Shown: positions 1 to 30,412 of the stretch, piece by piece | How positions within the stretch are numbered: the first letter of the stretch is position 1 | Layout of the letters: each line of letters opens with the position of its first letter | Assembly: GCA_963718915.1 (NCBI GenBank) | Contig: CAVRAI010000015.1 | Span: 330,001-362,000 of the forward strand | Source of the DNA: an uncultured Chloroflexia bacterium | GTDB taxonomy: Bacteria; Chloroflexota; Ktedonobacteria; Ktedonobacterales; JADMIN01 | Reading direction: 5' to 3' | DNA: 32,000 bases | Notes under the pieces: generated by a model | What the model was told of the DNA's origin: nothing | Databases searched by the model: none | What the model saw: the letters and a program-made list of their open reading frames with translations, nothing else | Program-made: the position numbers and the translations under genes

Positions 1-342
1 CGCCAGCACCAGCGGCAGCCCGCGCAGGCCCCAGGTGAGACTGCGCGGCTCGGTGATTGGACTGATCTGGCTGAAGACACACCAGCCCATCAGCAGCCAA
101 AGGAGCGCTGCCCCGGCGATGAAGAGCGCATGCCACGCTCGGCGGCGCGAGTGCTGACGGAGAGGCGACAGTGATAGCGCCATCAGCGCCGCGCCCGCAA
201 CGAAGAGCAGCATGGCTGGCAGCCGCGCTGGCTCGAAGGCGGCAACTGGCGGAATCAGCAGGCAGCAGAGAAGAGCGCCCACGACCAGCGTGAGCGCCGC
301 AAGCAACGGTTTCGAGTTGGCCAGGACATGCGCGTTGGACAT
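1..342 (-). CDS. hypothetical integral membrane protein (first 114 codons; gene continues past the left window edge)
   Basis: The minus-strand frame is open from ATG (342-340) to base 1. The translation MSNAHVLANSKPLLAALTLVVGALLCCLLIPPVAAFEPARLPAMLLFVAGAALMALSL... is dominated by helix-length hydrophobic segments. The start overlaps the stop at 344-342 as TGATG, which fits operon coupling to the pre-insertion ligase gene. Confidence 0.5.
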   Translation of the reverse strand, partial: MSNAHVLANSKPLLAALTLVVGALLCCLLIPPVAAFEPARLPAMLLFVAGAALMALSLSPLRQHSRRRAWHALFIAGAALLWLLMGWCVFSQISPITEPRSLTWGLRGLPLVLA

Positions 343-2138
343 CAGGCGGTCTGGACCCCCGCTGCGGTGTGCAGCCCCCACTCTTCGACGGACTGCTGAC
401 GCATGATGAATTTTTGAATCTTGCCGGTGACAGTTGTAACACAAACAGAGGTACTGCCGTCCGATTCGGTGATGACGGGCAGCACGCCGGAGACGGGCAG
501 ATGCAGGTCCAGGGCGATGCGCGGGTCGCGATCCCCCACCTTCCAGACGCGCACCTGCGCGCCGAGCGCCGCGAGGACTTCCCGGCGTTGGCGCATGGTC
601 AGGGCGTCTGCGTTACGTCCGACGTTCGCGGCCCAGTCTATAATCCGCTCAAGCGCCTGCTCTTGTCGTATGGATTGCTCGGCGTGGACTGCGGCGATCT
701 GGCGCTCGCTGCTGAGCATCCGCTGCTGGCGCGCGAGGTCGGTTAATTGTTCAGTCAGCGGGGCAAGCGCATCAGGGTCCGTCATGAGCGTGATGGCCCT
801 GGTCACATTCGCGCGTTGGCGGTCGATCTCTGCCAGCCGGGTATCAATGGCGGCAAGCACGGCGCGCGCCGGGTCTTCTGTCTGGTCCGTGCGACTCCGC
901 TCGAGCTCGTAGGCGATCACACGCGGATCGAGCAACAGTGCGCGGACGCTCTCCCAGACGGTGGCGTCTAACAGGTGCGCCTTGATCGCGAAGGTCACAC
1001 AGGAACCCTTCACGCGGATGGGCTTCTTGCACTGGTAGTTGCTGGCTGGGGTGCCATCCTCATGGCGTCTGAAGGTGCCCGATAGCGTGAGCGCACCGCC
1101 ACAATAGGCGCAGCGCGCGAAGCCGCCCTGGAGCAGTGTCGCATCGGGGTTGCGGTTATTCCGGCTGGCCAGTTGCCGATTGAGCGCGAGGCGATCCTGT
1201 ACCTGCTGGGCGAGTTCCTCGGTGACGAGTGGGGGCGCGACGCTGGCTGGCAATTCCACACGCTCTTCATCGGGGCGCAGTGCGCGGATGGTCCGGTGCT
1301 TGTAGCCGCCGCGCATGCGTTCCTGTGGGGTCAGGTGGACCGCCTTGCTGACGAAGGCGCGCGGCTTGCCCCAGTAGGTGGGGTGCTTGAGGATCTGCCG
1401 CACAACAACATGGTCCCATGCCGCTGCGCCGTTCTTGTTGCCAGCATAGGTCGCGGGCGTCGGGATACCTTCCGCCGTCAGCGCCGCAGCGATGCTGCGC
1501 AAGGTCTGCCCTGCGGCCGCGTCGCGGAAGATGCGCTGCACGATAAGCATGGTTATAGGATCGGGCACCATGCGCACTTTGGCAGGCAACCCCTTCTCAT
1601 TGCGCTCTGGTCCCCACGCATAGCCGTAGAGCGGGCGATTGCTGGGAAGCAGATGGCCGGATGCCACGCGGGCACGCTTCGCCCGCATGGTGCGCTCCTT
1701 GCGCATGCGATTCTCCATCTGCGCCGCGTAGCCCTTGACGTAGGCGATCAGGCGTCCCTCTGGCGTATCCTCGAGGCTATCAATAGCAAACTTCACATCG
1801 AGGCCAGCGCGCTCGAGCTCAGTGAGCGCCACGAGCAAATGGTTCGGATCGCGCGAGAGCCGATCGACACAATGCACCAGCACAGTCCCGAAGGCGCCAC
1901 GAGCCGCTGCCGCGCGTAGATCGAGCAAGACTGGGCGCTCGTAATAATCCTCGGCGGTGGAGCTCTCCCAGTAGACGTGCGCCTCGTCAATCGTCAGCCC
2001 TTGAGAGGCTGCATACGCCCGGCACTCGGCTTCCTGGGTCTTGAGGCTGGTTTTGTCGTCAGTAGCCTGCTGTGGGCTGCTCACACGCAGATAGAGGGCG
2101 ACGGTGCGCGGGACGGTGTGAAGTTGCCTCGCCATCAT
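342..2138 (-). CDS. large serine recombinase (phage-type serine integrase)
   Basis: 598-aa ORF with the standard large-serine-recombinase layout. It has a resolvase catalytic domain (VALYLRVSSPQQ ... LVHCVDRLSRD) and a recombinase domain (YGYAWG, GQTLRSIAAALTAEGIPTP). It also has zinc-ribbon cysteines (CAYCGG ... YQCKK ... GSC) and a long coiled-coil segment. The last 26 codons (419-342) lie beyond the att core and read like an acyl-CoA ligase C-terminus. Confidence 0.9.
   Translation of the reverse strand: MMARQLHTVPRTVALYLRVSSPQQATDDKTSLKTQEAECRAYAASQGLTIDEAHVYWESSTAEDYYERPVLLDLRAAAARGAFGTVLVHCVDRLSRDPNHLLVALTELERAGLDVKFAIDSLEDTPEGRLIAYVKGYAAQMENRMRKERTMRAKRARVASGHLLPSNRPLYGYAWGPERNEKGLPAKVRMVPDPITMLIVQRIFRDAAAGQTLRSIAAALTAEGIPTPATYAGNKNGAAAWDHVVVRQILKHPTYWGKPRAFVSKAVHLTPQERMRGGYKHRTIRALRPDEERVELPASVAPPLVTEELAQQVQDRLALNRQLASRNNRNPDATLLQGGFARCAYCGGALTLSGTFRRHEDGTPASNYQCKKPIRVKGSCVTFAIKAHLLDATVWESVRALLLDPRVIAYELERSRTDQTEDPARAVLAAIDTRLAEIDRQRANVTRAITLMTDPDALAPLTEQLTDLARQQRMLSSERQIAAVHAEQSIRQEQALERIIDWAANVGRNADALTMRQRREVLAALGAQVRVWKVGDRDPRIALDLHLPVSGVLPVITESDGSTSVCVTTVTGKIQKFIMRQQSVEEWGLHTAAGVQTA
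420..431. repeat. left att core (attL), CTTGCCGGTGAC
   Basis: Exact 12-bp direct repeat of 12827-12838. On the minus strand both copies encode V-T-G-K in a ligase C-terminal motif. Confidence 0.75.
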
Positions 2139-2365
2139 GCGCCCCCTTCCGGGTCTTTGTTTAGTAGATCATCCGTCGAGATCCCGAGCGCCTCGGCGAT
2201 CTTGCGAATGTTGGCAAAACTCACCACTTCGTCACCGCGCTCGGCGCGCGCCATCGTGCCCTTCGACACGCCCACCTTGCGCGCCAGCTCGGCCTGCCCG
2301 AGCAGCTTTTCGAGTCGCCACGCCTTCAGGTAGGGCAGTGGCTTCCCACGTATGTACTCCGCCAT
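2135..2365 (-). CDS. XRE-family helix-turn-helix transcriptional regulator
   Basis: MAEYIRGKPLPYLKAWRLEKLLGQAELARKVGVSKGTMARAERGDEVVSFANIRKIAEALGISTDDLL is a typical HTH_3 pattern. Its stop overlaps the recombinase start (ATGA at 2138-2135), so the two are co-transcribed. I chose the start at ATG 2365 (GGGGA upstream); the ORF track allows an upstream start at 2428. Confidence 0.8.
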   Translation of the reverse strand: MAEYIRGKPLPYLKAWRLEKLLGQAELARKVGVSKGTMARAERGDEVVSFANIRKIAEALGISTDDLLNKDPEGGA

Positions 2366-2430
2366 GATCGTGTCCCCAATCATGCGCATTCTCGCTTTCT
2401 CACACGCCGTACAACCACGGCCCAACAACT

Positions 2431-2969: not shown

Positions 2970-3403
2970 CCGCAGAAAAAAGCAGCCACGCGCCCAGGCT
3001 CACACTGGTCCGAGGCCGCGCTCTCAACTGCGTGAAATATGCCTCATAACCTCCTACGCGCCTCAAGGTCGGGGGCTGCACGCAACACCCGGTGATCGAC
3101 TCGCCAGAGCGGTACCGGTTGCCCCCTTCCTTGGGGCTTTGTGTCCGTTCCTCTAGACACGACAAAAGCGCCATGCCTCATCAGGGTATGGCGTAGGGAG
3201 ATATGGACGCCAATTCTAGGATCGCGGTGCCTGGCGTGTCCCGCAGCGGCCTCTTCGCGCCCTTCGGCTCGATGTGGCGCCGTGCCTCGCGCACAGGACT
3301 TGCTGCTTCACCTGCCTTTCCCTGGCAAGTGTACTGCATACCATCACACACTGCACGCCTGGCTACCCTCTTGTGCTATGCGCCTCGGCGCTCGTTTTCT
3401 TTG

Positions 3404-3412
3404 TGGTACAAT
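3404..3412 (+). promoter_or_regulatory. extended -10 element (TGGTACAAT) upstream of the small Cys-rich ORF
   Basis: TGnTACAAT at 3404-3412 with no good -35. The surrounding 13-mer GGTACAATGAATG (3405-3417) repeats GTTACAATGAATG at 2452-2464. Confidence 0.3.
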
Positions 3413-3476
3413 GAATGCTTGAACGTTGGTTCCATGCACAGACAGGCAATACAAGTAAAAATATGGAGTTACTACC

Positions 3477-3650
3477 ATGAACGGAAAGTGCGATACCTGC
3501 GGTGAGCCCGCAGGAGCGAAGTGTGATGCCCCTGGCTGCTCAAACGAGATGTGCGAGGCGCACGCGGCACGAAAGTGGGCGCCGTTCTCGATATCGACAA
3601 TCCACCTGAGCCGAATCCGCAGGTGTTCTGCCCCGAGCATGCCCATCTAG
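3477..3650 (+). CDS. small Cys-rich (zinc-ribbon-like) protein, 57 aa
   Basis: Below the ORF-track size cutoff; I translated it by hand as MNGKCDTCGEPAGAKCDAPGCSNEMCEAHAARKWAPFSISTIHLSRIRRCSAPSMPI. GGAG lies at 3465-3468, 8 nt before the ATG. It has an N-terminal CxxC...CxxxxC...C cluster. Confidence 0.45.
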   Translation: MNGKCDTCGEPAGAKCDAPGCSNEMCEAHAARKWAPFSISTIHLSRIRRCSAPSMPI

Positions 3651-3686
3651 CGATCAACTAGCCTGTAAGCCCATCAAACCTATCAC

Positions 3687-3726
3687 GACGCGCCGAGAAT
3701 AGCTGGCCAGCTATTCTCGGCGCGTC
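3687..3726. repeat. 40-bp perfect palindrome
   Basis: GACGCGCCGAGAATAGCTGG / CCAGCTATTCTCGGCGCGTC, an exact reverse complement with no spacer. It lies between the Cys-rich ORF and the nuclease-ParA gene. No T-tract follows. Confidence 0.9.
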
Positions 3727-3871
3727 TGCCTCCGCTGTAGGCTGATCGATGGGCAATGATGCCGTCACCGTGTCTCAGGTGTTATCGCTATGTCATCCGC
3801 TCGTTATACGCAGTAACAGCTTTGCTGCTATTGCCCTGCTGCGTCCTGAGACACAAGGAAACGGGAGATGT

Positions 3872-5272
3872 TCTATGGCTGTCTCATCTGATCAAGGCGC
3901 AACGTTGCCTTTGTCCACTGGCGATGATGAGGATGCGCTTGCAACCGAAACGGTATCGTCACCTCCGCCCTCATCCCCTCACGATCAGTTCGCTGAGTTA
4001 TATCAGAAACCCACCATTGAGGGGATGAGACATCTTGGCGCTCGCGGCCTCGAGTTCGAGCGCTTCATCAAGTATGTACTGGATCATGCGGGCTACCAAG
4101 CCAAACATACTGGCCCAGTATTCAAGGGTGGCGTCGACGTTGAACTCTTGGAACGTGTAGACCACGGGAAGGCTCGCCGCCTTGGCGGGGTGGAGTGTAA
4201 ACGGTACAACCGCCAACAGCCGGTCGGAAGAGACCCTGTTCAGAAACTTGCCGGTGCACGCGCTCTAAAAGGGGGGCTGCCAGGCTATCTCATCACAACG
4301 AGCACGTTCACCAAGCCAGCGCGAGAGGAAGCAGCTGCTCACCCAACCCTTCACTTAATCGATGGCGAAAGGCTCACGCGCTATATCACCTATGTGGCTG
4401 GATCTGCTGGCGCTGAACGCAAGCACTCACTAACCGCAATCTCGCCAGATGTGGTACTCAGAGCAGATCGCATACAGGTGCAGCCGCCCGCCAAGATGCC
4501 ACACATTGTCACCATAGCCAACAATAAGGGCGGCGTAGGCAAGACGACGACTGCGCGCTTCTTAGGCTTAGAGTTGGCCTCTGGCGGAGAGCGGGTCTTG
4601 TTGATTGATATGGATCCGCAGGCCAATCTAACGGAGTTTGTCCTGGGCGTAGGCCCGGACGACCTCACACCGCCATCACTGGCTGACTATTTCGTTGAGG
4701 CCGCTTCTCTCCGTGATGCAGTCCATCCGTCACCACAGCAGCCACTCTTATCGATCATCCCTGCTCACCCGTTGCTCGCACGGTATGACTCTGGCGGCTT
4801 TGGCCGCCCTGACCTTGAGCTGCGTTTTGTGGAGTCCGTCAATGCCGCCTTCGGATCAAAGGAAGGACATCTCCTCTTCGATTGGATCATCATCGATACA
4901 CCGCCGAACGTCTCGCTTTTTACGCGCGCGGCGCTGGCAGCCAGTGAGTACATATTGGTACCAGCCAGAGCGCGTAAGTCATCACTTCGTGGCACACTAA
5001 ATATGCTCGAGGCTCGCAAGGCAATGGGCGCGCTCATGGGCAGTACCCCGAAAGTCCTCGGCGGCCTTTTCACACACTGGGGAGAGGATAACGCCTCACA
5101 AGATACTGAGACCGACCTTGCGGTAATTCTCGGCAATGTCGAAAGTGGAGTACTTGAGGTCAGGATCCCGATGTCCAATGCGATTGAATCAAACCCGATC
5201 GCAGCACACAACGCGATGAAAGAATACAGGAAACTCGCTGAGGAGGTAAAGAAGCATGTCAGCCCCCAGTGA
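3872..5272 (+). CDS. fusion protein: N-terminal Mrr-type restriction-endonuclease (PD-(D/E)xK) domain + C-terminal ParA/MinD-type P-loop ATPase
   Basis: The nuclease part reads [17 protein letters not shown]...GGVDVELL...GGVECKRY...[31 protein letters not shown]. This follows the Mrr_cat pattern, and the D...ExK residues are present. The ATPase part has a deviant Walker A ([12 protein letters not shown]), then [12 protein letters not shown], and Walker B (WIIIDTPPN). I preferred the start at ATG 3872 (GGGAG 7 nt upstream); the ORF is open from ATG 3749. Confidence 0.8.
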
Positions 5273-5774
5273 ATCAACGACCGCTGAAACGGTTGATAGA
5301 AGCGTTGCCGCAACACGGCAACTGTGCGACGAACTCGCTCTCGGTATACTAAAACCGAAGGATCTCAAACTTCTATCGACCGCGCTCATGGAAGCAGCTT
5401 CAATTGAAGCTGGTCACAACACTGCGTTTCGCGCCTGTATTCTCAAGATTTATGGGGACTTGAAGGCTGACGCAGCTCCCAAATCTGCCAGCACTCGTGG
5501 TGGAGCATCCAAAACCAAGTCGCCAATGACATGGCTAACGCCTATTAATCCTGTTGACCCCAAACGGTTCGGCCCAGACAAACTCTTGGACCCATACTTG
5601 ATCCAATATGCATATGGGGACGACAACCTTCGCCTTATTTTGAACGGGTATACTCCAGCCCGGTTGAAGGAAGCCGTAGCGATCGTAGAGGAGCGCAATC
5701 CAGGCACAAAGCCAACGAATCGCAGTAAAAAAGATGCGCTTGTCGAGTACATCATCCGGTATGTGATTGCCTAG
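5256..5774 (+). CDS. hypothetical protein coupled to the nuclease-ParA gene; possible C-terminal helix-extension-helix (SAP/Rho_N-like) DNA-binding motif
   Basis: 172-aa ORF overlapping the upstream stop by 17 nt. GAGGAGG lies 9 nt before the ATG. The C-terminus YTPARLKEAVAIVEERNPGTKPTNRSKKDALVEYIIRY resembles the HeH pattern L-x-EL...KK-x-LI-x-x-I; this is a tentative call. Confidence 0.65.
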   Translation: MSAPSESTTAETVDRSVAATRQLCDELALGILKPKDLKLLSTALMEAASIEAGHNTAFRACILKIYGDLKADAAPKSASTRGGASKTKSPMTWLTPINPVDPKRFGPDKLLDPYLIQYAYGDDNLRLILNGYTPARLKEAVAIVEERNPGTKPTNRSKKDALVEYIIRYVIA

Positions 5775-8782: not shown

Positions 8783-11498
8783 TGTCGCTACCTCCCTTGG
8801 ATGAGTCCGCGCGAAGAGAGGTGTGCAGGTGAACCTTAGTCGATGATCTCCCGCCTTTCGGGCCTGCGTCCAAACGCTCGATACGCACCCATCCGTGTGC
8901 TTCAAGGACTTGTAGAGCGTCCTCGGCCTCTTCAACGGTCTGAAGGTGTTCCCATCCGTGCACGTAAATGTCGCGGACGCTAGCACCCTCTAGAACCTCC
9001 CTACGCTTGATATGTTTGAGGAGTGAGCTGGCACGTTCCATGCTTGGACTGGCTGCGCTGGCATACACCCTTCGGGCTAGGCGTTTCCAGATATTCGCAC
9101 CAACTAATCGCCTGAAGCGCTGCCGCCTCACCGACAGAACCGACATAACCCTCAGTAGCAGGGTCAGAGTCAATGAGATGGAAGAGCAGGGCAAGCGCGG
9201 GCATCAGGCTCCGATACTTGGCGAGATGCGATGTAAACGCATCGCTCAAGTCCCCAGAGCGAAGCCGCTGCTCTAAGCTAGGCCACCATTCGTAAAACAA
9301 CCGCTGGGCGGTGTCGCTGAAGCGGAGTGTGGGAATCGCGTGTGGGTCGGTCTCATCATCGGACGCGGCGCCATAGTCGGATGGATTCAGGTTTGCCAGT
9401 CGCTCAAAAATGGCGAATACGGTGTTCTTGGCTTCGGTGTTGGGCCAGCGATCCACAATCTGGAAGTGGGTGTGCGCATCCGGCCACACCAGCAACTGGA
9501 ATCGCTGAAGAAAGCCATCAGCCCCAGCGCCGATACTGTCCGTGGCCGCGTACACATAACTCCGAAGCGGGCCAGGCTGGATTCCTCCCAGGACACTGAC
9601 ACAGAGGGCTGGCACGATGATTGAGCCGCGGCCAATCCGATCTACTTCGTAATTGGTGGATGTCCTCCCCACGCCTCGGTGTAGAATGCGCGATCTCCCT
9701 CGTGGCCTTGCTTCTCCAGGGTCCGCAACCAGCCCATGAGTTCATCGCGATGAACGAGCAAGCCCGACGGATTAGCAATCAGCAGTTCGGCGAGCTTCTC
9801 GATGGTCGTATCATTCGTCCGATACCGCCGGGCTGTGGGTTCCTGGGGAGGTCGGAGCACAGCGAGTTGCTGTTTCAGTTCCTCGATAGACTCGGTTGGG
9901 ACCGCTTCTGATTCGTCGGTCGGTTTTGTTGCTCTACCGGCTGCGCGTGCCGCTGCTCGGATGCGATCAGTTAGGGTAGCTTTCTCGATCTCATAAGAGA
10001 TTTTCTCGGCGGCATACGTGGCGAGTGCTGACTCATGGTCCGTTCTTGCCTCGGCAATCAGGCGCTCGATGGGTTTCATCGCAGCCGTCATACTGGGCGT
10101 CTTACCCAGGCCGGAACGGCCAACCACTGCGCCCCAGAGATTAGGCGGCACCGTCCAATCATCCGCTTTCTTGGGGCGGATTCCGATGCAACGGCCAACA
10201 GTAGCGCCCAGCGACACTACTGCTGCGACGGCGGGATAATCAGGCGGCACTTGCTGCCGCTCAGCAATGTCCCAGACGAAGCCGCGAATCTTCGCAGGCA
10301 GCATGTCCATGTCAAAAGGCGCCACAGTGGGAAGCAACTCAGACAAGGGTGTCGGATCGTCCCAGGCGCGCGCGGCCCCGGTATCTGCTGGCGGATGCTG
10401 CCCCTTGGTTATCGTCGGCGGTGACTGCCGCCAGCCAGCTTCCCAGACATCTCTCATATCTGCGAATTTACGTCCCTGACAGGAGTTGTGATGGCAGCCG
10501 CCCGTGATAGTACCTGTGCCTACAAACTGCCTGACCCATGCGCTGCCCTGATGTTCTCGATTCCAAGGGCATTCATCGAGTTCCCAGGTAGTACCTTGCG
10601 CATCGGGCTTCGTCCGCCGCACCTTTACGCCATGCGCGTTGAGATATTGCTCGGCGTCCATGATCCAACGCTCGCCGCGTGGCCAACTTTTCGCGCGCGA
10701 ATCAGGCGATGCCCCGGTTGCGCCAACTGGCGCCAAGGCATCTGCCAGCGCGCGCAGTTGCTGCTCTGAGACAACCCCAATAGAATCGGGCGCCTCAAGG
10801 ATGTGTGAGCGCCGATGCGGGCGCTCAGGGAGCACGTCTCCCTTGCGTGTCAGTGTCCCGTACAGTTTGATGATGCGTGCGGCGTTGCCGACAGTGGTGT
10901 CCAACTTGATGCACGGGAACTCTGTGGCGGCATCATCAAAGCGTGCCGCCAACCCCTTTAGAATGCGTTCTACCAGCCGACGCGCCTCATCATCATTGGG
11001 AAGGTCAATGGCGTAGAGGAGATGGCCGCCGTTGCCGCTGTCGGCGAAGATCGGCTCTGGCCAACCCTGTGGATCAAGATAGGCACGGATAGCACGTGCC
11101 TTGTTGAGCGCAGCGTTGTGTTCACTATCCGTCGAGGAGATCGCAGACGGCCTCGATGGGTCAGCATCGAGCGGAAGCCAGCGCCGCCGAGTGATCTCAA
11201 CATCGTTCGTAGTCGCCCGGGCATGGCCTTGTAGCCGCGCATTGGCTCGAGCTCGTATGTCCGATTTGACAGGGTTCAGGGTGACGTAAACCGCCTCTAC
11301 CTTACCATCCATCTGCGCGACGATATCGCGTGCACACTGCTGCGGGTCGCTATAATAGCCGCTGCCGGTACCCTGTCTCGTACGGAGAGCACGGATCTCC
11401 CAAACGTCGCCAGGGTGATGGAGGAGGCTCAGGGTGTTGGCGATCTCTTCTTCAACGGTGCGCTCATGTGGAAGCGCGGAGTTTGGAATTGCGTTCAT
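8769..11498 (-). pseudogene. replicative primase-helicase (AEP prim-pol domain + zinc motif + DUF3987/YfjI-like P-loop domain), interrupted by two frameshifts
   Basis: The N-terminal part carries AEP motifs (RRWLPLDADP, SGNGGHLLY) and a zinc motif (ECPWNREH...GGCHHNSC). It also has Walker A (GRSGLGKT). The conserved DUF3987 run breaks at ...AFYTEAWGG and resumes as ...TSTNYEVDRIGRGSIIVPALCVSVLGGIQP in another frame, near 9655-9672. It returns to the first frame near 9081-9090, where CEYLE is followed by (R)LARRVYASAASP. The pieces are ORFs 9642-11498, 9001-9672 and 8769-9194. Confidence 0.8.
9129..9149 (+). repeat. third copy of the 21-bp element
   Basis: CACCGACAGAACCGACATAAC, matching copies 1 and 2 at 19-20 of 21 positions. 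It lies inside the C-terminal part of the primase-helicase gene. Confidence 0.8.
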
Positions 11499-12748: not shown

Positions 12749-14477
12749 CTACGCCGTCTTGGTATCGGCGGCGAAGTGCAGGCTCAACTCGGCGATCGCC
12801 TCTTCGCGCATCTTGTATTTAGTTACCTTGCCGGTGACGGTCATCGGGAAGGCATCCACGAACTTCCAGTAGCGCGGAATCTTGAAGGTGGCGATCTGGC
12901 CCTGGCAGAACTGCGTCATCTCCTCGGCGGTGGCCTGCGCGTCCTCCTTCAGTTTCACCCAGGCGGCGATCTCCTCGCCGTAGCGCTCGCTGGGCACACC
13001 AAAGACCTGCACATCACTGACGGCGGGGTGCGTATAAAGGAACTCCTCGACCTCGCGCGGATAGACATTCTCGCCGCCGCGAATGATCATGTCTTTGAGC
13101 CGCCCGACGATATTGACGTAGCCATCATCGTCCATGGTGGCGAGGTCGCCGGTATGCATCCAGCGGGCGGAGTCAATCGCCTTCGCGGTCGCCTCCTCAT
13201 TGCCCCAGTAGCCCAGCATCACCGAGTAGCCGCGCGTCAGCAGCTCACCCGGCTCACCTCGTGTGACGACGTTGCCCGTCACCGGATCGACCACCTTCAC
13301 CTCGACGAATGGGTGAATCTGTCCGACGGTGGAGACCCGCTTCTCCAGCGGGTCGTCCAGGTGCGTCTGGAAGGAGACGGGGCTGGTTTCGGTCATGCCA
13401 TAGCAAATCTCGACGTCGCTCATATGCATCCGGTCAATCGTCTGGCGCATAACCTGCACCGGGCATGGCGAGCCGGCCATCACACCAGTCCGCAGGCTGC
13501 TCAGATCGTACTGGTCAAAGTCCGGCTGCGCCAGCTCGGCGATGAACATCGTCGGGACGCCATAGAGCGCGGTGCAGCGCTCGTCCTGCACGGTCTGCAA
13601 CACCGCCTGTGGCTCGAACGTCTCGGCGGGATAGACCATCGTCGCGCCGTGCGTCATGCAGCCGAGATTGCCCATGACCATCCCGAAACAATGATAGAGC
13701 GGGACGGGAATGCAGAGCCGGTCGTTCTCGCTGAAGTTTTGCAGCCGTGCCACGAAATAGCCGTTGTTCAGGATGTTGTGATGGCTCAGCGTCGCCCCTT
13801 TCGGGATTGCCCGTGGTGCCAGAGGTGTACTGAATGTTGATGGGATCGTCGAACTCCTGCTCGGCCTGGCGCTGGGCCAGTGTCTCGGCTGAGACCTCGC
13901 CCCCCCGTTGCAGCGCCTCGCCCCAGACCCACATGCCTGGGATGCGCTCGTCACTCAGGCGGATGACATGGCGCAGCTGCGGGAACTTGTGCGCGTCGAG
14001 CTGGCCGGGCGCGAAATGCGCCAGCTCCGGGCAGAGGGTCTGCATCATCGCCGTGTAGTCAGTCGCGCGGAAATTGGGCGCGAGCACCAGCGCCACGCAG
14101 CCGGACTGATTCAGCGCGTATTCAAGCTCGTGCAGGCGGTAGGCGGGGTTGATGTTGACGAGGATCGCCCCGATTTTGGAGGTGGCGAACTGGGTGATGG
14201 TCCACTCCGCGCGGTTGGGGGACCAGATGCCCACCCGGTCGCCTTTGCTGATGCCAATGGCGAGGAAGCCACGGGCCGCCTGATCGACCGCGTCGCGTAG
14301 CTGTGCCCAGGTGTAGCGCAGATTCTGGTGGCGCGAGACGAGCGCCTCGCGGTCAGGGAAACGCGCGACGGTCTGATCGAATGCGTCGCCGATGGTCATG
14401 CCGAGCAGCGGGGTCTCGCTGGGGCCGCTGACGTAGCTTCCATTCTGGGTCCGCTCTGTCTGTGGTGTCTGTGTCAT
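12749..14477 (-). pseudogene. AMP-dependent acyl-CoA synthetase/ligase (FadD-like) with one frameshift; the 3-prime 78 nt are supplied by the integrated element
   Basis: Start at ATG 14477 (MTQTPQTERTQ...) with AGGAGG 9 nt upstream. The AMP-binding motif [13 protein letters not shown] runs into ERGDAE, while [17 protein letters not shown] continues in another frame. One extra base lies in the CCCCTTTCGGG stretch (13795-13805). Downstream motifs are intact ([32 protein letters not shown]). Confidence 0.85.
12827..12838. repeat. right att core (attR), CTTGCCGGTGAC
   Basis: Exact direct repeat of 420-431, inside the ligase C-terminal codons PMTVTGK. Confidence 0.75.
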
Positions 14478-14732
14478 CCGGGGATCCTCCTGAACCGCAA
14501 AACAACGGTTATTGTGGCCAGCGACTGTCACAATTCTTCATAACGTGCGTGATGACGCCGACCCGATGCCCTCTCATGACGCCGCCTCGTAGTGAGACAT
14601 ATTGAGACATTCTGTGCGCACAACCTGGTCTTGTGTCAATGCGCGCTCGCGGAGAGGCGCCGCGCGATGAGCCGGGTGAGTCCGGATGTGAGTGCGCTAT
14701 AGCCTGAACGGGTGGCGCCTGGGGACAAATTG

Positions 14733-14761
14733 TTGTTGTAGTTCGCACGCTATGATATACT
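14733..14761 (+). promoter_or_regulatory. candidate promoter for the 14950-16169 gene pair
   Basis: TTGTTG (14733-14738), 17-bp spacer, TATACT (14756-14761), preceded by TG (14753-14754). This would give a leader of about 190 nt. Confidence 0.4.
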
Positions 14762-14949
14762 GGCGCGGTCCGGGGTGGCCGGACATGCACTTCTTGTCGG
14801 CGATAACGTTGGCAGATTGCAGTTCCGTGTGCATATGTGGTGGCAGGGGTTGCGGGCACGGCCCGATCCGGTCACAGCACGTCGAGCAGATCGGGCAATG
14901 CGCCCGGCATGCTCCCAACAGATCGAACAGATCGAGCGGGGAAGACAGC

Positions 14950-27346: not shown

Positions 27347-30300
27347 TCAGCGCGACCGGCGGGAGGCGGGACGGCGCGCGCGATGGGGTGGCGCGCTGAG
27401 TAGCGTCTGGGTGGCGTCGGGCTGAGTCAATCCAATATCAACGGCCCAGGCGGCGATCTGCGCCCGCGAACTAAATCCCAGCTTACCCAGGATGTTAGTG
27501 ACATGCGATTCGGTGGTGCGTTCGCTGATGACCAGTTCATCGGCGATTGCGCGGTTGGACCTCCCCTGCGCCACCAACGCGGCGACCTCGCGCTCGCGTG
27601 CGGTCAACATCAGCGACGCCGCCCGTGTGATTTCCACCGAACGCTTCGGTTCAGGTGGCAGGCTGGCGAGGCTCTGTCGTAAAAAGACTGCGCGCAGCAC
27701 CGCATCGGAGATCGTCTCGGCCAGCCGAAAGGCCAGCTCGCGCGCTTCGTTCGCGGCGCGTGTTGCATCGTCACTACGGCCCATCTGCTGATAAAGCAAC
27801 GCCAGGTTGGTCAGTACTCGCCGCAGTGACGTCTGTGCGCCCTGTGCGCGCAAGTCTATTTCAGCGGCGTGCAGCCATGCCTCCGCTTCATCATAGCGGC
27901 CTAATGCTGTCAGCGCCTTCCCATTCAGGAGCGCCACCATAGGCATGCCATGCTGTCCGTCGGGAGACGAATTTCCAGTGAGGCGCCGGGCGATGTCGAG
28001 CGCGACGTCGGGCATTCCCTGAGCCAGCGCCAGATCCCCACGTGTCATCCAGGACAACCGCTGCCCCACGGTCTGCATGGCGATATCGATCGGAGCGCCA
28101 GCATCCAGCACAGCCTCAGCCGTTTCCAGGTCGCCCTGAGCTATGCAGGTTGCCGCGAGTACCGCGGTTAGCTCGCGCATCCAGTGTGTTGAGTTGATCG
28201 CATGAGCCAGCTTTAGCCCGTGTTCCAGGTGCTCGCGGGCCAGCGCCAACGCATAGAGTTCATATGCCAGTTCACCGAGTGTGCAATACGAAGCGGCCAT
28301 CCATTGGCGGTGCTCGATATCTTTGGCAACGGCCAATGCGGAGGTGGCGCTCGTCATACCTCGGCCAAACTCTCCGCTGGCAGCCAGGCAGAGACCCATT
28401 ACCCAAAGCGCGTTGGCCTCCCCTGCCCGCCATCCCATCTCGCGCGCGATACGCAAGCCCTCCTCAGCATGACGAGTCGCCTCGCTCAGTGTCGTAGGCG
28501 CGAGGGTCATTGTCTGTGATTGGCGGAGCGCCGCTGTAAATGGCAGCGTCACCAGGCTGGATGATAGCGGCTGCCGGTCATCCAGGGCGCGCAGCATGTC
28601 TATTGCACGCTGCCCATAGCTCACTGCGTCGATCAGATCATCGCTGAGGATTCCAGCCATGCACAGTAAATCAAGTGTTTCCGCAACGCCGCGCGCGTCG
28701 TCCGCAGCCTCGAAGATGCCTAAAGCCTCCAGGTGATAGCTCTTTGCCTTAAGCGGCTCGTCAACGTTGAGATGCCAGTTGGCAAGCCGGTTTAGCGTGC
28801 GCGCGCGTTTCAATGGCTCATCGAGCGTGTCCGCAAGCGTCAGGGCGCGCTGATAATATTCGCCTGTTTTGGCGTAGTCGCGTCCCGCCCAGAGAAGTCC
28901 CAGATCGAGGAGCGCAGCCCACTCGGTAGCGGTATCGTCGTTCTCGTGCGCCAGTGTAAGCGCAATCTCCAGATCGCTCCGTGCGTGCTCAAAATCGCCG
29001 AGTGTTTCATAGGCGCTGGCGCGCGCCTGATAGATGGCGGGAGCTACCGGCACGCCGAGGTGATGCGCGGCGTTGACGGCCTGAGTAAATTGTTCGAGCG
29101 CGGCATGTGGCGCGTAGAGCGCCAGCGCGCGTTCTCCCGCCTGATGTGCGTATTCGAGTGAGCGCGTCCATTCTCCCGCCTGGCAGGTGTGGTATGCCAG
29201 TTCGCTCAGATGGCTTTCCAACTCGTCGGCATAGAGGACTTCCAGTGCCGCTGCGATGGTGCGGTGCATCGTCCGGCGTTCGCGCTCCAGCAATTCGGAG
29301 TAGACGGCCTGGCGAGTAAGCGCATGGCGGAAGGCGAAGCGCTCGGCGGATTGTTCGACGACCAGTTGCGCCGCGATCAGTTCTTTAAGCAGATCGAGCA
29401 ACGCCGCTTCTTCACACCCACAGAGATGCTGGAGTAGCGCGAACTCGAATCGCTGCCCAACGACCGCCGCAAATGCCAGTATCTGACGCGCCGCCACGCT
29501 GAGGTGTTCGCTGCGTCGGCGGACGGCATCCTGCACGCTGCGGGGGATATTGAGATCATTGAGTGGCTTGCGCTCCCATCCCTCGCTGCTATAGTAGATT
29601 TCGTCGTCGGCCAGCAGCGCATGCAATACCTCTTCGATGAAGAACGGATTGCCTTCGGTCAGGTTATACATGGCGTCGAGGAATTCATGGCGTACGGGGC
29701 GTTGTAACTGGAAGATGACATGGAGCATTTCCTCAACTTCAGCTGACGACAGTGGGGCAAGCGCTATCTCGCTCGCCAGCCGCTCGCGGTCGAGTTGCGC
29801 GAGGAAATGCTGAAGTTGTGTGTGCTGCTCGTCGCTGCGATAGGTCAGCAGCAGCAAAATCGGGAGTTGCGGGAGCCGCCGCGCGAGGAATGTGAGAAAT
29901 TCGAGGCTAGTGTCATCGGCCCAGTGGATATCTTCGGCGACCAGGAGGAGCGGCTGGCGCGCGCTGAGTCTGGACAGCAGGTGAACCAGCGCCTCGAAGA
30001 GACGTCGCTTCTCCTGCTCCGGGCTAATCAACGGAGCAATGGCGCCGGGAGGAAGATAGGCGACCAGCTCTGGCAGCAGTCGTGCGTACTCGGTGGCGTA
30101 TGTTCCTGCGTCGCGCATCAATTCTGTCGGCGTAACAATGGCGAGCAGCGCCCGCAGGGCATCGATCAGTGGGCCGTAGGGTAGGGAACGATCTGGCTCG
30201 AAGCAATTACCCTGGAGGGTGAGCATCGCGTCTCGGCGGATGCCCGTCTTGATTTCCGCGATCAGTCGCGACTTGCCAATACCCGCCTCACCAGCCAGTA

Positions 30301-30412
30301 AAAGGGTATGCCCATGTCCCTGGCGCATCTGTCCCAGTTGGAGTGAGACGGACTCCAGATACGCCATGCGGCCAATCAGTCTTGGGCATATCGCAGAGTG
30401 CGGAGCGGCCAT
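27347..30412 (-). CDS. LAL-type (large ATP-binding LuxR) transcriptional regulator: AAA/NTPase + TPR-like repeats + C-terminal LuxR HTH
   Basis: Walker A is LLLAGEAGIGKSRL and Walker B is LLLVAEDIHWAD. The middle is long and helical-repeat. The C-terminus LTAREREVAALVAQGRSNRAIADELVISERTTESHVTNILGKLG is a GerE/LuxR HTH. Confidence 0.85.
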   Translation of the reverse strand: MAAPHSAICPRLIGRMAYLESVSLQLGQMRQGHGHTLLLAGEAGIGKSRLIAEIKTGIRRDAMLTLQGNCFEPDRSLPYGPLIDALRALLAIVTPTELMRDAGTYATEYARLLPELVAYLPPGAIAPLISPEQEKRRLFEALVHLLSRLSARQPLLLVAEDIHWADDTSLEFLTFLARRLPQLPILLLLTYRSDEQHTQLQHFLAQLDRERLASEIALAPLSSAEVEEMLHVIFQLQRPVRHEFLDAMYNLTEGNPFFIEEVLHALLADDEIYYSSEGWERKPLNDLNIPRSVQDAVRRRSEHLSVAARQILAFAAVVGQRFEFALLQHLCGCEEAALLDLLKELIAAQLVVEQSAERFAFRHALTRQAVYSELLERERRTMHRTIAAALEVLYADELESHLSELAYHTCQAGEWTRSLEYAHQAGERALALYAPHAALEQFTQAVNAAHHLGVPVAPAIYQARASAYETLGDFEHARSDLEIALTLAHENDDTATEWAALLDLGLLWAGRDYAKTGEYYQRALTLADTLDEPLKRARTLNRLANWHLNVDEPLKAKSYHLEALGIFEAADDARGVAETLDLLCMAGILSDDLIDAVSYGQRAIDMLRALDDRQPLSSSLVTLPFTAALRQSQTMTLAPTTLSEATRHAEEGLRIAREMGWRAGEANALWVMGLCLAASGEFGRGMTSATSALAVAKDIEHRQWMAASYCTLGELAYELYALALAREHLEHGLKLAHAINSTHWMRELTAVLAATCIAQGDLETAEAVLDAGAPIDIAMQTVGQRLSWMTRGDLALAQGMPDVALDIARRLTGNSSPDGQHGMPMVALLNGKALTALGRYDEAEAWLHAAEIDLRAQGAQTSLRRVLTNLALLYQQMGRSDDATRAANEARELAFRLAETISDAVLRAVFLRQSLASLPPEPKRSVEITRAASLMLTAREREVAALVAQGRSNRAIADELVISERTTESHVTNILGKLGFSSRAQIAAWAVDIGLTQPDATQTLLSAPPHRARRPASRRSR

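What the first reader, a model, noticed from the sequence alone, without database searches (positions are those of the whole stretch)
3872..5774. Mrr-type nuclease domain fused to a ParA ATPase, with a coupled 172-aa partner: candidate undescribed defence or partition module
A single ORF joins two domains.
- The first is an apparently intact Mrr_cat PD-(D/E)xK domain (GGVDVELL...GGVECKRY).
- The second is a complete ParA/MinD ATPase ([21 protein letters not shown]).

I know of no described system built on this fusion. ParA proteins normally carry at most an HTH at the N-terminus. Mrr-type nucleases normally pair with winged-helix or McrB-type modules.

The downstream gene overlaps by 17 nt and has a strong RBS, so the two act together. 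Its tail looks like a HeH/SAP DNA-binding motif.

The pair is the only compositionally foreign cargo on a small integrative element, which is the kind of site where satellites and prophages keep anti-phage systems.

Two hypotheses:
- (a) An NTPase-plus-nuclease immunity module.
- (b) A partition cassette in which the nuclease fold has become a DNA-binding domain and the partner plays the ParB or centromere-binding role.
Basis: partly seen in the sequence, partly recalled or inferred. Interest (0 to 1): 0.78.

Follow-up and report, generated by a model that had tools for sequence, protein, structure and literature searches.

The report
Nuclease–ParA fusion with coupled partner
A soil bacterium's small integrated mobile element carries an undescribed two-gene cassette: a DNA-cutting enzyme domain fused to a DNA-segregation-type ATPase, plus a small orphan partner. 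The cassette recurs in over 100 relatives, often next to anti-phage genes, so it is most likely a new kind of defence or conflict module.

Summary
One ORF (true start ATG 3875, not 3872; ends 5272) joins an intact Mrr_cat PD-(D/E)xK domain to a complete Soj-like ParA ATPase. A 172-aa gene (5256-5774) overlaps it by 17 nt behind a GAGGAGG ribosome-binding site.

- **Family size:** at least 114 full-length fusions share this architecture (39-89% identity). The only named ones are Ktedonobacterales. Sources call them 'AAA family ATPase' or 'chromosome partitioning protein'.
- **Conservation:** nuclease residues D/E/K are kept in 94-97% of members, and the Walker A lysines in 100%.
- **Partner:** a homologue lies directly downstream in all 11 independent loci I could inspect. 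It matches no Pfam, NCBIfam, PADLOC or PDB entry.
- **Mobility:** the pair has lower G+C than at least one flank in all 9 loci measured. No third gene is conserved. It sits in recombinase- or integrase-bearing elements, beside transposases, or alone among housekeeping genes.
- **Neighbours:** 5 of 11 loci have defence-type genes close by (a complete ABC-3C/Lamassu-type system, a RosmerTA-type RmrA, TIR proteins, PDC-S45).
- **Absences:** no centromere-like repeats are conserved. No copy was found in PLSDB plasmids, INPHARED phages or IMG/VR.

Best reading (about 0.5): a mobile nuclease-effector conflict module gated by ParA-type ATP dimerisation and its partner. Main rival (about 0.25): an unusual partition module. 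The SAP/HeH claim for the partner is unconfirmed.

The parts
3875..5272 (+). Fusion gene: 465 aa, Mrr-type nuclease domain plus ParA/Soj-type ATPase. An alternative in-frame ATG lies at 3749.
   Evidence: ORF list. Identical to P0001, 465 aa. Pfam Mrr_cat, AAA_31 and CbiA. AlphaFold2 model: mean pLDDT 87.4, pTM 0.86.
4046..4384 (+). Mrr_cat PD-(D/E)xK nuclease domain. Catalytic Asp is at 4136-4138 (GVDVE), Glu at 4193-4195 and Lys at 4199-4201 (GGVECK).
   Evidence: Pfam PF04471, E 3.5e-22. D, E and K are conserved in 111, 108 and 107 of 114 full-length family members. The predicted alpha-beta-beta-beta-alpha-beta core has high confidence.
4505..5269 (+). ParA/Soj-type deviant Walker A ATPase domain. 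Walker A KGGVGKT is at 4526-4546.
   Evidence: Pfam AAA_31 and CbiA. Best PDB sequence match is T. thermophilus Soj, E 1.2e-33. Foldseek to Soj/ParA, E about 1e-16, TM to target about 0.8. Walker A lysines, D-x-D and the DTPP Asp are 100% conserved in 114 members.
5240..5246 (+). Shine-Dalgarno GAGGAGG for the partner gene, inside the 3' end of the fusion gene.
   Evidence: Sequence read directly. It lies 9 nt before the ATG at 5256.
5256..5774 (+). Partner gene, 172 aa, an orphan family. It overlaps the fusion gene by 17 nt. The model shows an N-terminal three-helix domain (aa 10-73), a disordered basic linker (aa 74-110) and a C-terminal four-helix domain (aa 113-171).
   Evidence: ORF. No Pfam, NCBIfam or PADLOC hit. 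329 representatives at 50% clustering in a profile search. AlphaFold2 mean pLDDT 80.3. A homologue lies directly downstream of the fusion in all inspected loci.
3687..3726 (.). Perfect 40-bp palindrome, 149 nt upstream of the fusion start and 37 nt after a 57-aa ORF (3477-3650). Whether it belongs to the module is uncertain. It is probably a terminator or insulator hairpin, or a single operator.
   Evidence: Inverted repeat I1, 100% complementary. RNA hairpin z-score -7.1. Unique in the window. Identical in L097. No equivalent upstream of homologues.
342..2428 (-). Context: large serine recombinase (342-2138) and an HTH_3 regulator (2135-2428) at the left end of the roughly 12-kb integrative element that carries the pair.
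   Evidence: Pfam Resolvase, Recombinase and Zn_ribbon_recom; HTH_3.
9001..11498 (-). Context: DUF3987 primase/helicase-type replication gene of the element, split into two ORFs by a frameshift.
   Evidence: Pfam DUF3987 profile positions 1-181 fall in 9642-11498 and positions 181-355 in 9001-9672.

Best explanation
The two genes form a self-contained, horizontally mobile conflict module. It is either an anti-phage/anti-plasmid defence or a closely related abortive/addiction system. Its effector is the Mrr-type PD-(D/E)xK nuclease domain.

**Proposed mechanism (inferred, not shown)**
1. The ParA/Soj-type domain binds ATP and forms the usual nucleotide-sandwich dimer. This brings two nuclease domains together on DNA, so cleavage becomes ATP-gated.
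2. The co-translated partner docks on the ATPase, as ParB, MinE or McdB do on their ParA/MinD partners. It either tunes ATP turnover and so restrains the nuclease, or it tethers the complex to DNA through its basic linker and C-terminal helical domain.

**What is shown**
- Both domains are intact.
- The nuclease and ATPase catalytic residues are conserved.
- The partner is strictly linked to the fusion.
- The cassette moves as a two-gene, low-G+C unit.
- It often lies among defence genes and on integrative elements.

**What is inferred**
- Nuclease activity.
- ATP-dependent dimerisation as the switch.
- The partner's role.
- The nature of the target and how self is spared.
For: 1. Mrr_cat and ParA domains both score well above the Pfam cut-offs.
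2. The confident two-domain model has pTM 0.86.
3. In 114 full-length homologues the nuclease D, E and K are kept in 97%, 95% and 94%. Mean column conservation of the nuclease domain (0.61) equals that of the ATPase (0.61). Walker A lysines are kept in 100%.
4. A partner homologue lies immediately downstream in all 11 independent loci, usually overlapping by 4-44 nt. It tracks the fusion's divergence.
5. No third gene is conserved on either side (same calls).
6. The pair's G+C is below at least one 5-kb flank in all 9 loci measured and below both flanks in 7. This includes loci flanked only by housekeeping genes: L085 has 0.55 against 0.66 and 0.70, and L086 has 0.55 against 0.63 and 0.64.
7. 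MGE context is seen in five loci:
   - the window's serine-recombinase element;
   - L081, a tyrosine-integrase, RecT prophage-like region;
   - L082, an 11-kb serine-recombinase element splitting a TetR gene;
   - L087, with an integrase;
   - L088, with transposases.
8. Defence-type neighbours within about three genes are seen in five loci:
   - L001, a complete ABC-3C/Lamassu-type system: LmuB E 6.9e-85, plus MC3 and CTD7;
   - L082, PDC-S45 (E 2.9e-106) and a PDC-S35 TIR protein;
   - L087, a TIR protein;
   - L102, a RosmerTA-type RmrA, E 2.3e-47;
   - L103, a TIR fragment and a mad3/AriA-like ABC ATPase.
9. In the window the pair is the only unit transcribed opposite to the rest of the element, which is a moron-like position.
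10. The nuclease part hits PADLOC models PDC-S02 and type IV mREase.
Against: - There is no functional data. Defence association is guilt by association from 11 loci, without a formal background rate. Ktedonobacteria genomes are rich in TIR and STAND genes anyway.
- No whole-protein match to any PADLOC system was found.
- The ATPase is closest to bona fide segregation proteins such as Soj.
- A small gene directly downstream is exactly the layout of parAB-type operons.
- The window's element has its own replication gene, so an episomal phase that needs partition is conceivable.
- A 2026 paper reports parA without detectable parB on Ktedonobacteria secondary replicons (PMC13289182). An unrecognised partner like this one could explain that.
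- Nothing here explains how self DNA would be spared.
Confidence: 0.5

Rival explanations
1. It is a partition or positioning module for mobile elements or secondary replicons. The Soj-like ATPase segregates DNA. The 172-aa protein is the ParB/ParG-like adaptor that binds DNA and stimulates the ATPase. The Mrr-fold domain takes the place of the N-terminal DNA-binding extension of type Ia ParAs. It would act as a DNA anchor or site-specific binder, possibly with retained nicking activity.
For: - The ATPase is most similar to chromosomal Soj/ParA.
- Every ParA-defining motif is 100% conserved.
- The partner lies immediately downstream and is translationally coupled, as in parAB operons.
- The partner has a basic disordered linker and compact helical domains, like small centromere-binding or adaptor proteins.
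- The positions aligned with Soj's DNA-binding arginines are not conserved. DNA binding could therefore have moved to the N-terminal domain.
- The window's element encodes a DUF3987 replication protein.
- Ktedonobacteria secondary replicons are reported to carry parA but no recognisable parB (PMC13289182).
- A perfect 40-bp palindrome lies upstream.
Against: - Catalytic D/E/K of the nuclease are under strong purifying selection. A pure binding role does not need that.
- The palindrome is a single site in the window.
- No palindrome or iteron array is conserved upstream of eight homologues.
- The cassette often sits alone among housekeeping genes as a low-G+C island with no replication or recombination genes nearby: L085, L086, L100 and L102.
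- All four elements with a recombinase or integrase are integrative.
- No true fusion was found among 72,556 PLSDB plasmids or 50,697 phage records.
- No partner homologue was found in IMG/VR.
- The partner shows no ParB, RHH or HTH similarity.
Confidence: 0.25
2. It is a toxin-antitoxin-like addiction module. The nuclease-ATPase is a toxin, and the small overlapping partner neutralises it. The cassette would persist by post-segregational killing and stabilise the elements that carry it. It would not act primarily against phages.
For: - The layout is a compact two-gene, translationally coupled cassette.
- The pair is strictly linked and spreads on its own as a low-G+C unit.
- It occurs on integrative elements.
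- ParA/Soj-like ATPases have already been predicted as components of TA-like dyads with HEPN RNases (PMC3710099).
- A RosmerTA-type gene lies next to one copy.
Against: - The partner is downstream and lacks the HTH or RHH domain typical of type II antitoxins.
- A 465-aa two-domain 'toxin' with a fully conserved ATPase is atypical.
- This reading overlaps with abortive-infection defence and cannot be separated from it by sequence alone.
Confidence: 0.15
3. It is a DNA-processing accessory of the carrying elements. For example, it could be a VirC1-like ParA that recruits or processes element DNA for transfer, replication or excision, with the nuclease making a specific cut.
For: - ParA-family ATPases such as VirC1 give weak hits.
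- The pair sits between the recombination and replication modules in the window.
Against: - Host elements differ completely in their recombination and replication genes.
- Several copies have no element genes nearby.
- No relaxase or transfer genes are linked.
Confidence: 0.05

Closest known systems
Chromosomal Soj/ParA and small plasmid ParA ATPases (deviant Walker A, MinD/ParA family), with a partner encoded downstream (ParB, ParG, McdB, MinE)
   Same: - The C-terminal 255 aa have the full motif set and the Soj fold: PDB 1wcv E 1.2e-33, and Foldseek TM about 0.8 to Soj/ParA.
- A small partner gene follows directly and is translationally coupled.
   Different: - It carries an N-terminal catalytic-type Mrr nuclease domain, where type Ia ParAs carry an HTH.
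- The positions aligned with Soj R189 and R218 are not conserved.
- The partner is unrelated to ParB, RHH or McdB by sequence.
- No centromere repeats were found.
- Family-specific invariant motifs (RDxGGxGRPxxE, PxRARxSS, THW) remodel the surface after Walker B.
Mrr-type type IV restriction endonucleases (Mrr_N winged helix plus Mrr_cat)
   Same: - The Mrr_cat domain has the D...(E/Q)xK catalytic signature.
- The nearest non-fused relatives of the N-terminal domain are Mrr_N plus Mrr_cat proteins at about 34% identity.
- It hits PADLOC mREase_IV and PDC-S02 models.
   Different: - There is no Mrr_N or other reader domain.
- The nuclease is N-terminal and is fused to an ATPase.
- It needs, or at least always travels with, a second gene.
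Nuclease-plus-NTPase defence systems (OLD/Gabija-type ATPase-TOPRIM, PARIS AriA/AriB, Lamassu/ABC-3C, McrBC)
   Same: - The logic is the same: an NTPase coupled to a DNase effector, a small operon, carriage on prophages, satellites and islands, and adjacency to other defence systems.
   Different: - The NTPase here belongs to the SIMIBI-class ParA/MinD family, not ABC/SMC, AAA+ or GTPase McrB.
- No PADLOC system model matches the whole protein.
- Defence activity is untested.
ParA/Soj-like ATPases already noted in conflict systems: the HEPN(MAE_18760)-ParA dyads, and inactive MinD/ParA effector domains of vWA-MoxR systems
   Same: - A ParA-family ATPase is recruited outside segregation, next to or fused with a nuclease-type toxin domain (PMC3710099; PMC7159879).
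   Different: - Those systems pair ParA with a separate HEPN RNase, or they use predicted inactive ParA domains.
- Here the ATPase motifs are all intact, and the nuclease is a fused Mrr-type DNase with its own orphan partner.

Membership tests
ParA/MinD (deviant Walker A) ATPase family | Deviant Walker A KGGxxK[ST] with the signature lysine, a Walker A' Asp and a Walker B Asp | tested here: met
   KGGVGKT, DxD and DTPP are present. K218, K223, D245, D247 and D341 are conserved in 114 of 114 members.
ParA/MinD (deviant Walker A) ATPase family | Soj/ParA fold | tested here: met
   hmmsearch against PDB finds Soj 1wcv at E 1.2e-33. Foldseek on the model finds Soj/ParA at E about 1e-16, TM to target 0.78-0.82.
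ParA/MinD (deviant Walker A) ATPase family | Conserved basic residues for non-specific DNA binding (B. subtilis Soj R189 and R218; numbering from my memory of Hester & Lutkenhaus 2007) | tested here: not met
   The aligned columns are variable: Q/R/K/E and Q/A/R/T. The window protein has Q and A.
Type I parABS partition system | Centromere-binding partner of the ParB (HTH) or ParG/omega (RHH) type | tested here: not met
   The partner has no Pfam, NCBIfam or PDB sequence match. The model is all-helical with no RHH strand.
Type I parABS partition system | Repeated centromere sites next to the operon | tested here: not met
   The window has only one palindrome. No conserved palindromes or iterons lie upstream of eight homologues. 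Sites elsewhere on the replicon cannot be excluded.
Type I parABS partition system | Located on an autonomously replicating low-copy replicon, and stabilises it | not testable with these tools
   All contexts seen are integrated or chromosomal-looking. No fusion was found in PLSDB. Stability needs an experiment.
Mrr-type type IV restriction endonuclease | Mrr_cat PD-(D/E)xK domain with catalytic D...(E/Q)xK | tested here: met
   PF04471 at E 3.5e-22. D88, E107 and K109 are conserved in 94-97% of 114 members.
Mrr-type type IV restriction endonuclease | N-terminal Mrr_N winged-helix reader domain, and modification-dependent cleavage | tested here: not met
   No Mrr_N or other reader domain is present. 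The first 32 residues or so are disordered and unconserved. Modification dependence is not testable here.
Known or candidate defence systems (PADLOC-DB 2.0) | Whole-protein match to a system component model | tested here: not met
   Only domain-level hits were found. PDC-S02 and mREase_IV match the nuclease part. PDC-M28B matches the Walker A region only (26 bits). The partner has no hit.
Known or candidate defence systems (PADLOC-DB 2.0) | Genomic association with defence genes or mobile elements | tested here: met
   Defence-type neighbours occur in 5 of 11 loci. Recombinases, integrases or transposases occur in 5 of 11. No formal background rate was computed.
SAP/HeH DNA-binding motif (partner C-terminus) | Match to SAP, HeH or Rho_N profiles, or to that fold | tested here: inconclusive
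   - None of 130 partner homologues hits SAP, HeH or Rho_N at E<=1.
- One repeat-containing relative (P0280) has a sub-threshold SAP hit: 20.9 bits against a cut-off of 23.9.
- Foldseek gives only weak DEK matches, prob 0.30-0.38.
Type II toxin-antitoxin module | Small antitoxin with an HTH, RHH or similar DNA-binding domain that neutralises an adjacent toxin | tested here: inconclusive
   An adjacent, overlapping small gene is present, but it has no recognised antitoxin domain. Neutralisation is not testable here.

The most novel reading that the evidence does not exclude
A partition-type ParA/Soj ATPase has been turned into the ATP-gated dimerisation and DNA-surveillance engine of an immune nuclease. 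A ParB-analogous orphan partner sets its activity. This would be a defence system built on chromosome-segregation machinery, so far confined to the mycelial Ktedonobacteria (Chloroflexota).
Probability: 0.4. Interest if true: 0.8.

Novelty: new variant of a known kind. Interest (0 to 1): 0.62.

Why it matters
ParA/MinD ATPases are known as positioning motors. A fully intact ParA fused to a catalytically conserved restriction-type nuclease is a different use of them. A strictly linked orphan partner makes it more so.

**If it is a defence system**
- It adds a new NTPase class to the nuclease-NTPase immunity repertoire.
- It offers a simple, testable switch: ATP-driven dimerisation that brings two nuclease domains together.

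**If it is a partition system**
- It would be the first ParA with a nuclease-fold DNA module.
- It could supply the missing 'ParB' of Ktedonobacteria secondary replicons.

Either way, it defines two uncurated protein families from a poorly studied, biotechnologically interesting lineage: at least 114 fusions, and 329 partner cluster representatives. It also shows that small integrative elements in that lineage carry cargo cassettes.

Tried and rejected
1. **Genome-contig scan with the fusion alignment.** The tool chose generic ParA peptide patterns.
2. **Exact-sequence look-ups.** Look-ups of the window's own fusion (465 and 507 aa) found nothing.
3. **Third homologue search, N-terminal 200 aa only.** It gave mostly fragments and generic Mrr proteins at about 34% identity. 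It revealed no alternative architectures.
4. **tblastn against PLSDB.** Two hits seemed to cover the nuclease part (Rhodococcus pRJH4, Mycetohabitans). Annotation showed ordinary 266-270-aa ParAs, so they are over-extended alignments and were rejected.
5. **Other collections.** The phage collection gave only ParA-domain hits. IMG/VR gave no partner relatives. The metagenome scan with the partner gave only seven short contigs.
7. **Pfam scan of 130 partner homologues.** There was no recurrent family, so the SAP/HeH idea could not be supported.
8. **Centromere idea.** The palindrome at 3687-3726 is unique in the window and not conserved in homologous loci.
9. **Rfam.** Nothing was found in the window.
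10. **Core-gene idea, considered and rejected.** I asked whether the fusion is the vertically inherited chromosomal ParA of Ktedonobacteria. The published parA/parB sits with dnaA/dnaN. Here the neighbourhoods differ in every locus, and the pair is compositionally foreign.
Full report
**Observation**

The ORF list shows a 507-aa ORF at 3749-5272(+) and a 172-aa ORF at 5256-5774(+). Translation from 3875 gives 465 aa, identical to database protein P0001.

Pfam places three matches on the fusion (positions in the 466-aa translation from 3872):
- Mrr_cat at aa 59-171 (E 3.5e-22).
- AAA_31 at aa 212-381 (E 4.5e-31).
- CbiA at aa 213-438.

NCBIfam gives only sub-threshold ParA, RepA and MinD matches. 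The partner's ATG overlaps the fusion's stop codon by 17 nt and is preceded by GAGGAGG at a 9-nt spacing. The pair is compositionally distinct. Its G+C is 0.546 against 0.62 and 0.61 in the flanks. Its GC3 is 0.57 and 0.51 against 0.70-0.78 for neighbouring genes.

**Surroundings**

The pair lies in an integrated element of about 12 kb, with this layout:
- A large serine recombinase at 342-2138(-) and an HTH_3 protein at 2135-2428(-).
- A run of minus-strand genes with no family match.
- A DUF3987 primase/helicase-type gene split by a frameshift at 9001-11498(-).
- Ordinary host genes from about 12.7 kb: AMP-binding enzyme, PGA_cap, M50 protease, GyrA, AI-2E transporter and others.

The pair, plus a 57-aa ORF upstream, is the only plus-strand unit in the element. 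The same element occurs at 94-96% identity in a second sample (L097). No tRNA or Rfam feature is present.

**The fusion family**

The best 120 database hits all share the Mrr_cat-plus-ParA architecture at 39-89% identity. Where named, they come from Ktedonobacterales and are auto-annotated 'AAA family ATPase' or 'chromosome partitioning protein'. So the fusion is not a one-off.

In an alignment of 29 members the following are invariant: E63, D89, E108, K110, the Walker A lysines, DxD and DTPP (numbering of the 466-aa translation). In 114 full-length members (true-protein numbering):
- D88 is kept in 111, E107 in 108 and K109 in 107.
- Walker A and Walker B residues are kept in all 114.
- Mean column conservation is the same for the nuclease and ATPase domains, 0.61 each.

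The AlphaFold2 model is confident (mean pLDDT 87.4, pTM 0.86). It shows a canonical alpha-beta-beta-beta-alpha-beta nuclease core, a helical linker and a Soj-like ATPase. By sequence profile and by fold, the ATPase is closest to chromosomal Soj/ParA.

Family-specific invariant motifs (RDxGGxGRPxxE, PxRARxSS, THW) lie where other ParA/MinD proteins contact their partners (the location is my inference). The positions that align with the DNA-binding arginines of B. subtilis Soj are not conserved. That Soj sequence and its numbering come from my memory, so this is a lead only.

The nearest non-fused relatives of the N-terminal domain are ordinary Mrr_N-plus-Mrr_cat proteins at about 34% identity.

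**The partner**

It has no Pfam, NCBIfam, PADLOC or PDB sequence match. A word-indexed search found 19 clusters. A profile search of 1.84 billion representatives found 329 at E<=0.001, almost all 150-190 aa.

The model (mean pLDDT 80.3) has three parts:
- A three-helix N-terminal domain, aa 10-73.
- A disordered basic linker, aa 74-110.
- A four-helix C-terminal domain, aa 113-171.

The C-terminal domain also occurs as tandem repeats in a few long proteins.

One repeat protein has a sub-threshold SAP hit. Foldseek gives only weak DEK matches. None of 130 family members hits SAP, HeH or Rho_N.

**Linkage**

Every locus where sequence downstream of a fusion gene is available carries a partner homologue immediately after it, usually overlapping by 4-44 nt:

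| Locus | Note |
|---|---|
| window | |
| L001 | |
| L081 | |
| L082-84 | |
| L085 | ORF missed by the gene caller |
| L086 | |
| L087 | |
| L088/89 | |
| L100/101 | |
| L102 | |
| L103 | |

tblastn confirms the homology. Partner identity tracks fusion identity: 68/47, 54/47 and 44/36%.

Starting from the partner, short metagenome contigs show a ParA C-terminus upstream wherever there is room. The one exception is L091, where the partner gene is truncated next to Cas1-like fragments. No third gene is conserved on either side. This is a two-gene module.

**Contexts**

- The window, L081, L082 and L087 have a recombinase or integrase within a few kb. L082 is an 11-kb element that splits a TetR gene.
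- L088 has transposases.
- L085, L086, L100 and L102 show mostly housekeeping neighbours.

Even in those housekeeping loci the pair is a low-G+C island. It is below at least one 5-kb flank in all 9 loci measured and below both flanks in 7 (L001 and L082 are each below only one flank).

Defence-type genes lie within about three genes in five of eleven loci:
- L001: a complete ABC-3C/Lamassu-type system (LmuB/DUF3732, MC3, CTD7).
- L082: PDC-S45 and a PDC-S35 TIR protein.
- L087: a TIR protein.
- L102: a RosmerTA-type RmrA.
- L103: a TIR fragment and a mad3/AriA-like ABC ATPase.

No true fusion is present in PLSDB plasmids or INPHARED phages; the two apparent plasmid hits were alignment over-extensions. 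No partner relative was found in IMG/VR.

**Centromere test**

The palindrome at 3687-3726 is perfect and forms a very stable hairpin. It is a single site in the window. Upstream regions of eight homologues show no shared palindrome or iteron array, only ordinary hairpins after upstream genes. It sits 37 nt after a small ORF, so a terminator or insulator role is at least as likely as an operator.

**Interpretation**

Five observations point the same way:
- Catalytic residues are under purifying selection in both domains.
- The partner is obligate.
- The cassette spreads on its own as a compositionally foreign unit.
- It is carried on unrelated integrative elements, in a moron-like position.
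- It is repeatedly adjacent to defence systems.

Together these fit a conflict module (defence, abortive infection or addiction) better than a partition system. I put this at about 0.5, plus about 0.15 for the TA-like variant.

The mechanism I propose is inferred from established ParA/MinD behaviour, where ATP sandwich dimers are regulated by a partner peptide. It has three inferred steps:
1. ATP-driven dimerisation juxtaposes two PD-(D/E)xK domains on DNA.
2. The partner modulates ATP turnover or DNA tethering.
3. The result is a nuclease whose activity is gated by ATP and the partner.

How self DNA is spared is unknown.

The partition reading (about 0.25) keeps real support. The ATPase is Soj-like and the operon layout is ParAB-like. 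The element has its own replication gene. A 2026 paper reports that Ktedonobacteria secondary replicons carry parA but no detectable parB (PMC13289182).

**Comparison with the known**

The ATPase domain is a member of the ParA/MinD family; its motifs and fold were tested and met. The nuclease domain is a member of the Mrr_cat family. The whole protein is not a classical Mrr, because it has no reader domain. The pair is not a recognisable parABS system, because it has no ParB or RHH partner and no repeats. Neither protein matches any PADLOC system as a whole.

Literature searches found no description of this architecture. The nearest precedents are predicted HEPN-ParA dyads (PMC3710099) and inactive MinD/ParA effector domains in vWA-MoxR conflict systems of multicellular bacteria (PMC7159879).

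**Verdict**

This is a real, conserved and apparently undescribed two-gene module. I rate it a new variant of known kinds, built from known domains in a new combination with an orphan partner. Its function is unproven, and defence is more likely than partition. Interest is 0.62.

Noticed in passing
window 9001-9672(-) and 9642-11498(-); window 12749-13954(-) and 13515-14531(-): Two genes are each split into overlapping ORFs whose Pfam matches are consecutive halves of one profile. DUF3987 has profile positions 1-181 in one ORF and 181-355 in the other. AMP-binding has 1-177 and 177-384. These are frameshifts, from either long-read assembly indels or pseudogenisation.
   Followed up: partly
window 3687-3726: A perfect 40-bp palindrome with no loop. 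It is unique in the window, identical in the related contig L097, and gives an RNA hairpin z-score of -7. It lies 37 nt after a Cys-rich 57-aa ORF (3477-3650). Its function is unknown.
   Followed up: yes
L082/L083/L084 3026-14871: An 11-kb serine-recombinase element is inserted into a TetR gene: TetR_N lies at 3026-3277 and TetR_C at 14212-14871. It carries PDC-S45, a PDC-S35/CAP12-type TIR protein, the fusion-partner pair and a Peptidase_S78 (prohead protease-like) gene. This looks like a satellite-like element loaded with defence cargo.
   Followed up: partly
L001 9925-13961: A complete ABC-3C/Lamassu-type system (DUF3732/LmuB ATPase, MC3 middle component, CTD7 effector) lies convergent with the 68%-identical copy of the pair and directly adjacent to it. 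A SUKH-1 immunity-type protein lies upstream at 3348-4076.
   Followed up: yes
L102 12324-13846: A RosmerTA-type RmrA (HTH plus M78 peptidase; PADLOC E 2.3e-47) and an adjacent unannotated 230-aa gene lie directly downstream of another copy of the pair.
   Followed up: partly
L091 1111-2335: A partner gene lacks its first 45 codons or so. It is flanked on both sides by near-duplicate Cas1-like fragments (…FLHADTDRRDSLVYDLMECERGTVDGLVLDFL…). The locus appears rearranged or decayed.
   Followed up: no
proteins P0157, P0201, P0225, P0280: The roughly 60-aa C-terminal domain of the partner (…DPYxLxxxYGDxQLxxAL…HPGTKP…) occurs as two to four tandem copies in longer proteins of unknown function. One variant copy in P0280 gives a sub-threshold Pfam SAP hit.
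   Followed up: partly
window 27347-30412(-) and 30635-31996(-): There is a 1021-aa STAND-type AAA_16-TPR-LuxR regulator and a 453-aa TraG/VirD4/FtsK-like P-loop protein that runs to the window edge. Neither is linked to the finding.
   Followed up: no
literature: PMC13289182: Ktedonobacteria secondary ('chromid-like') replicons are reported to carry parA near the putative origin, with no detectable parB. It would be worth checking whether those parA genes are this fusion with its unrecognised partner.
   Followed up: no
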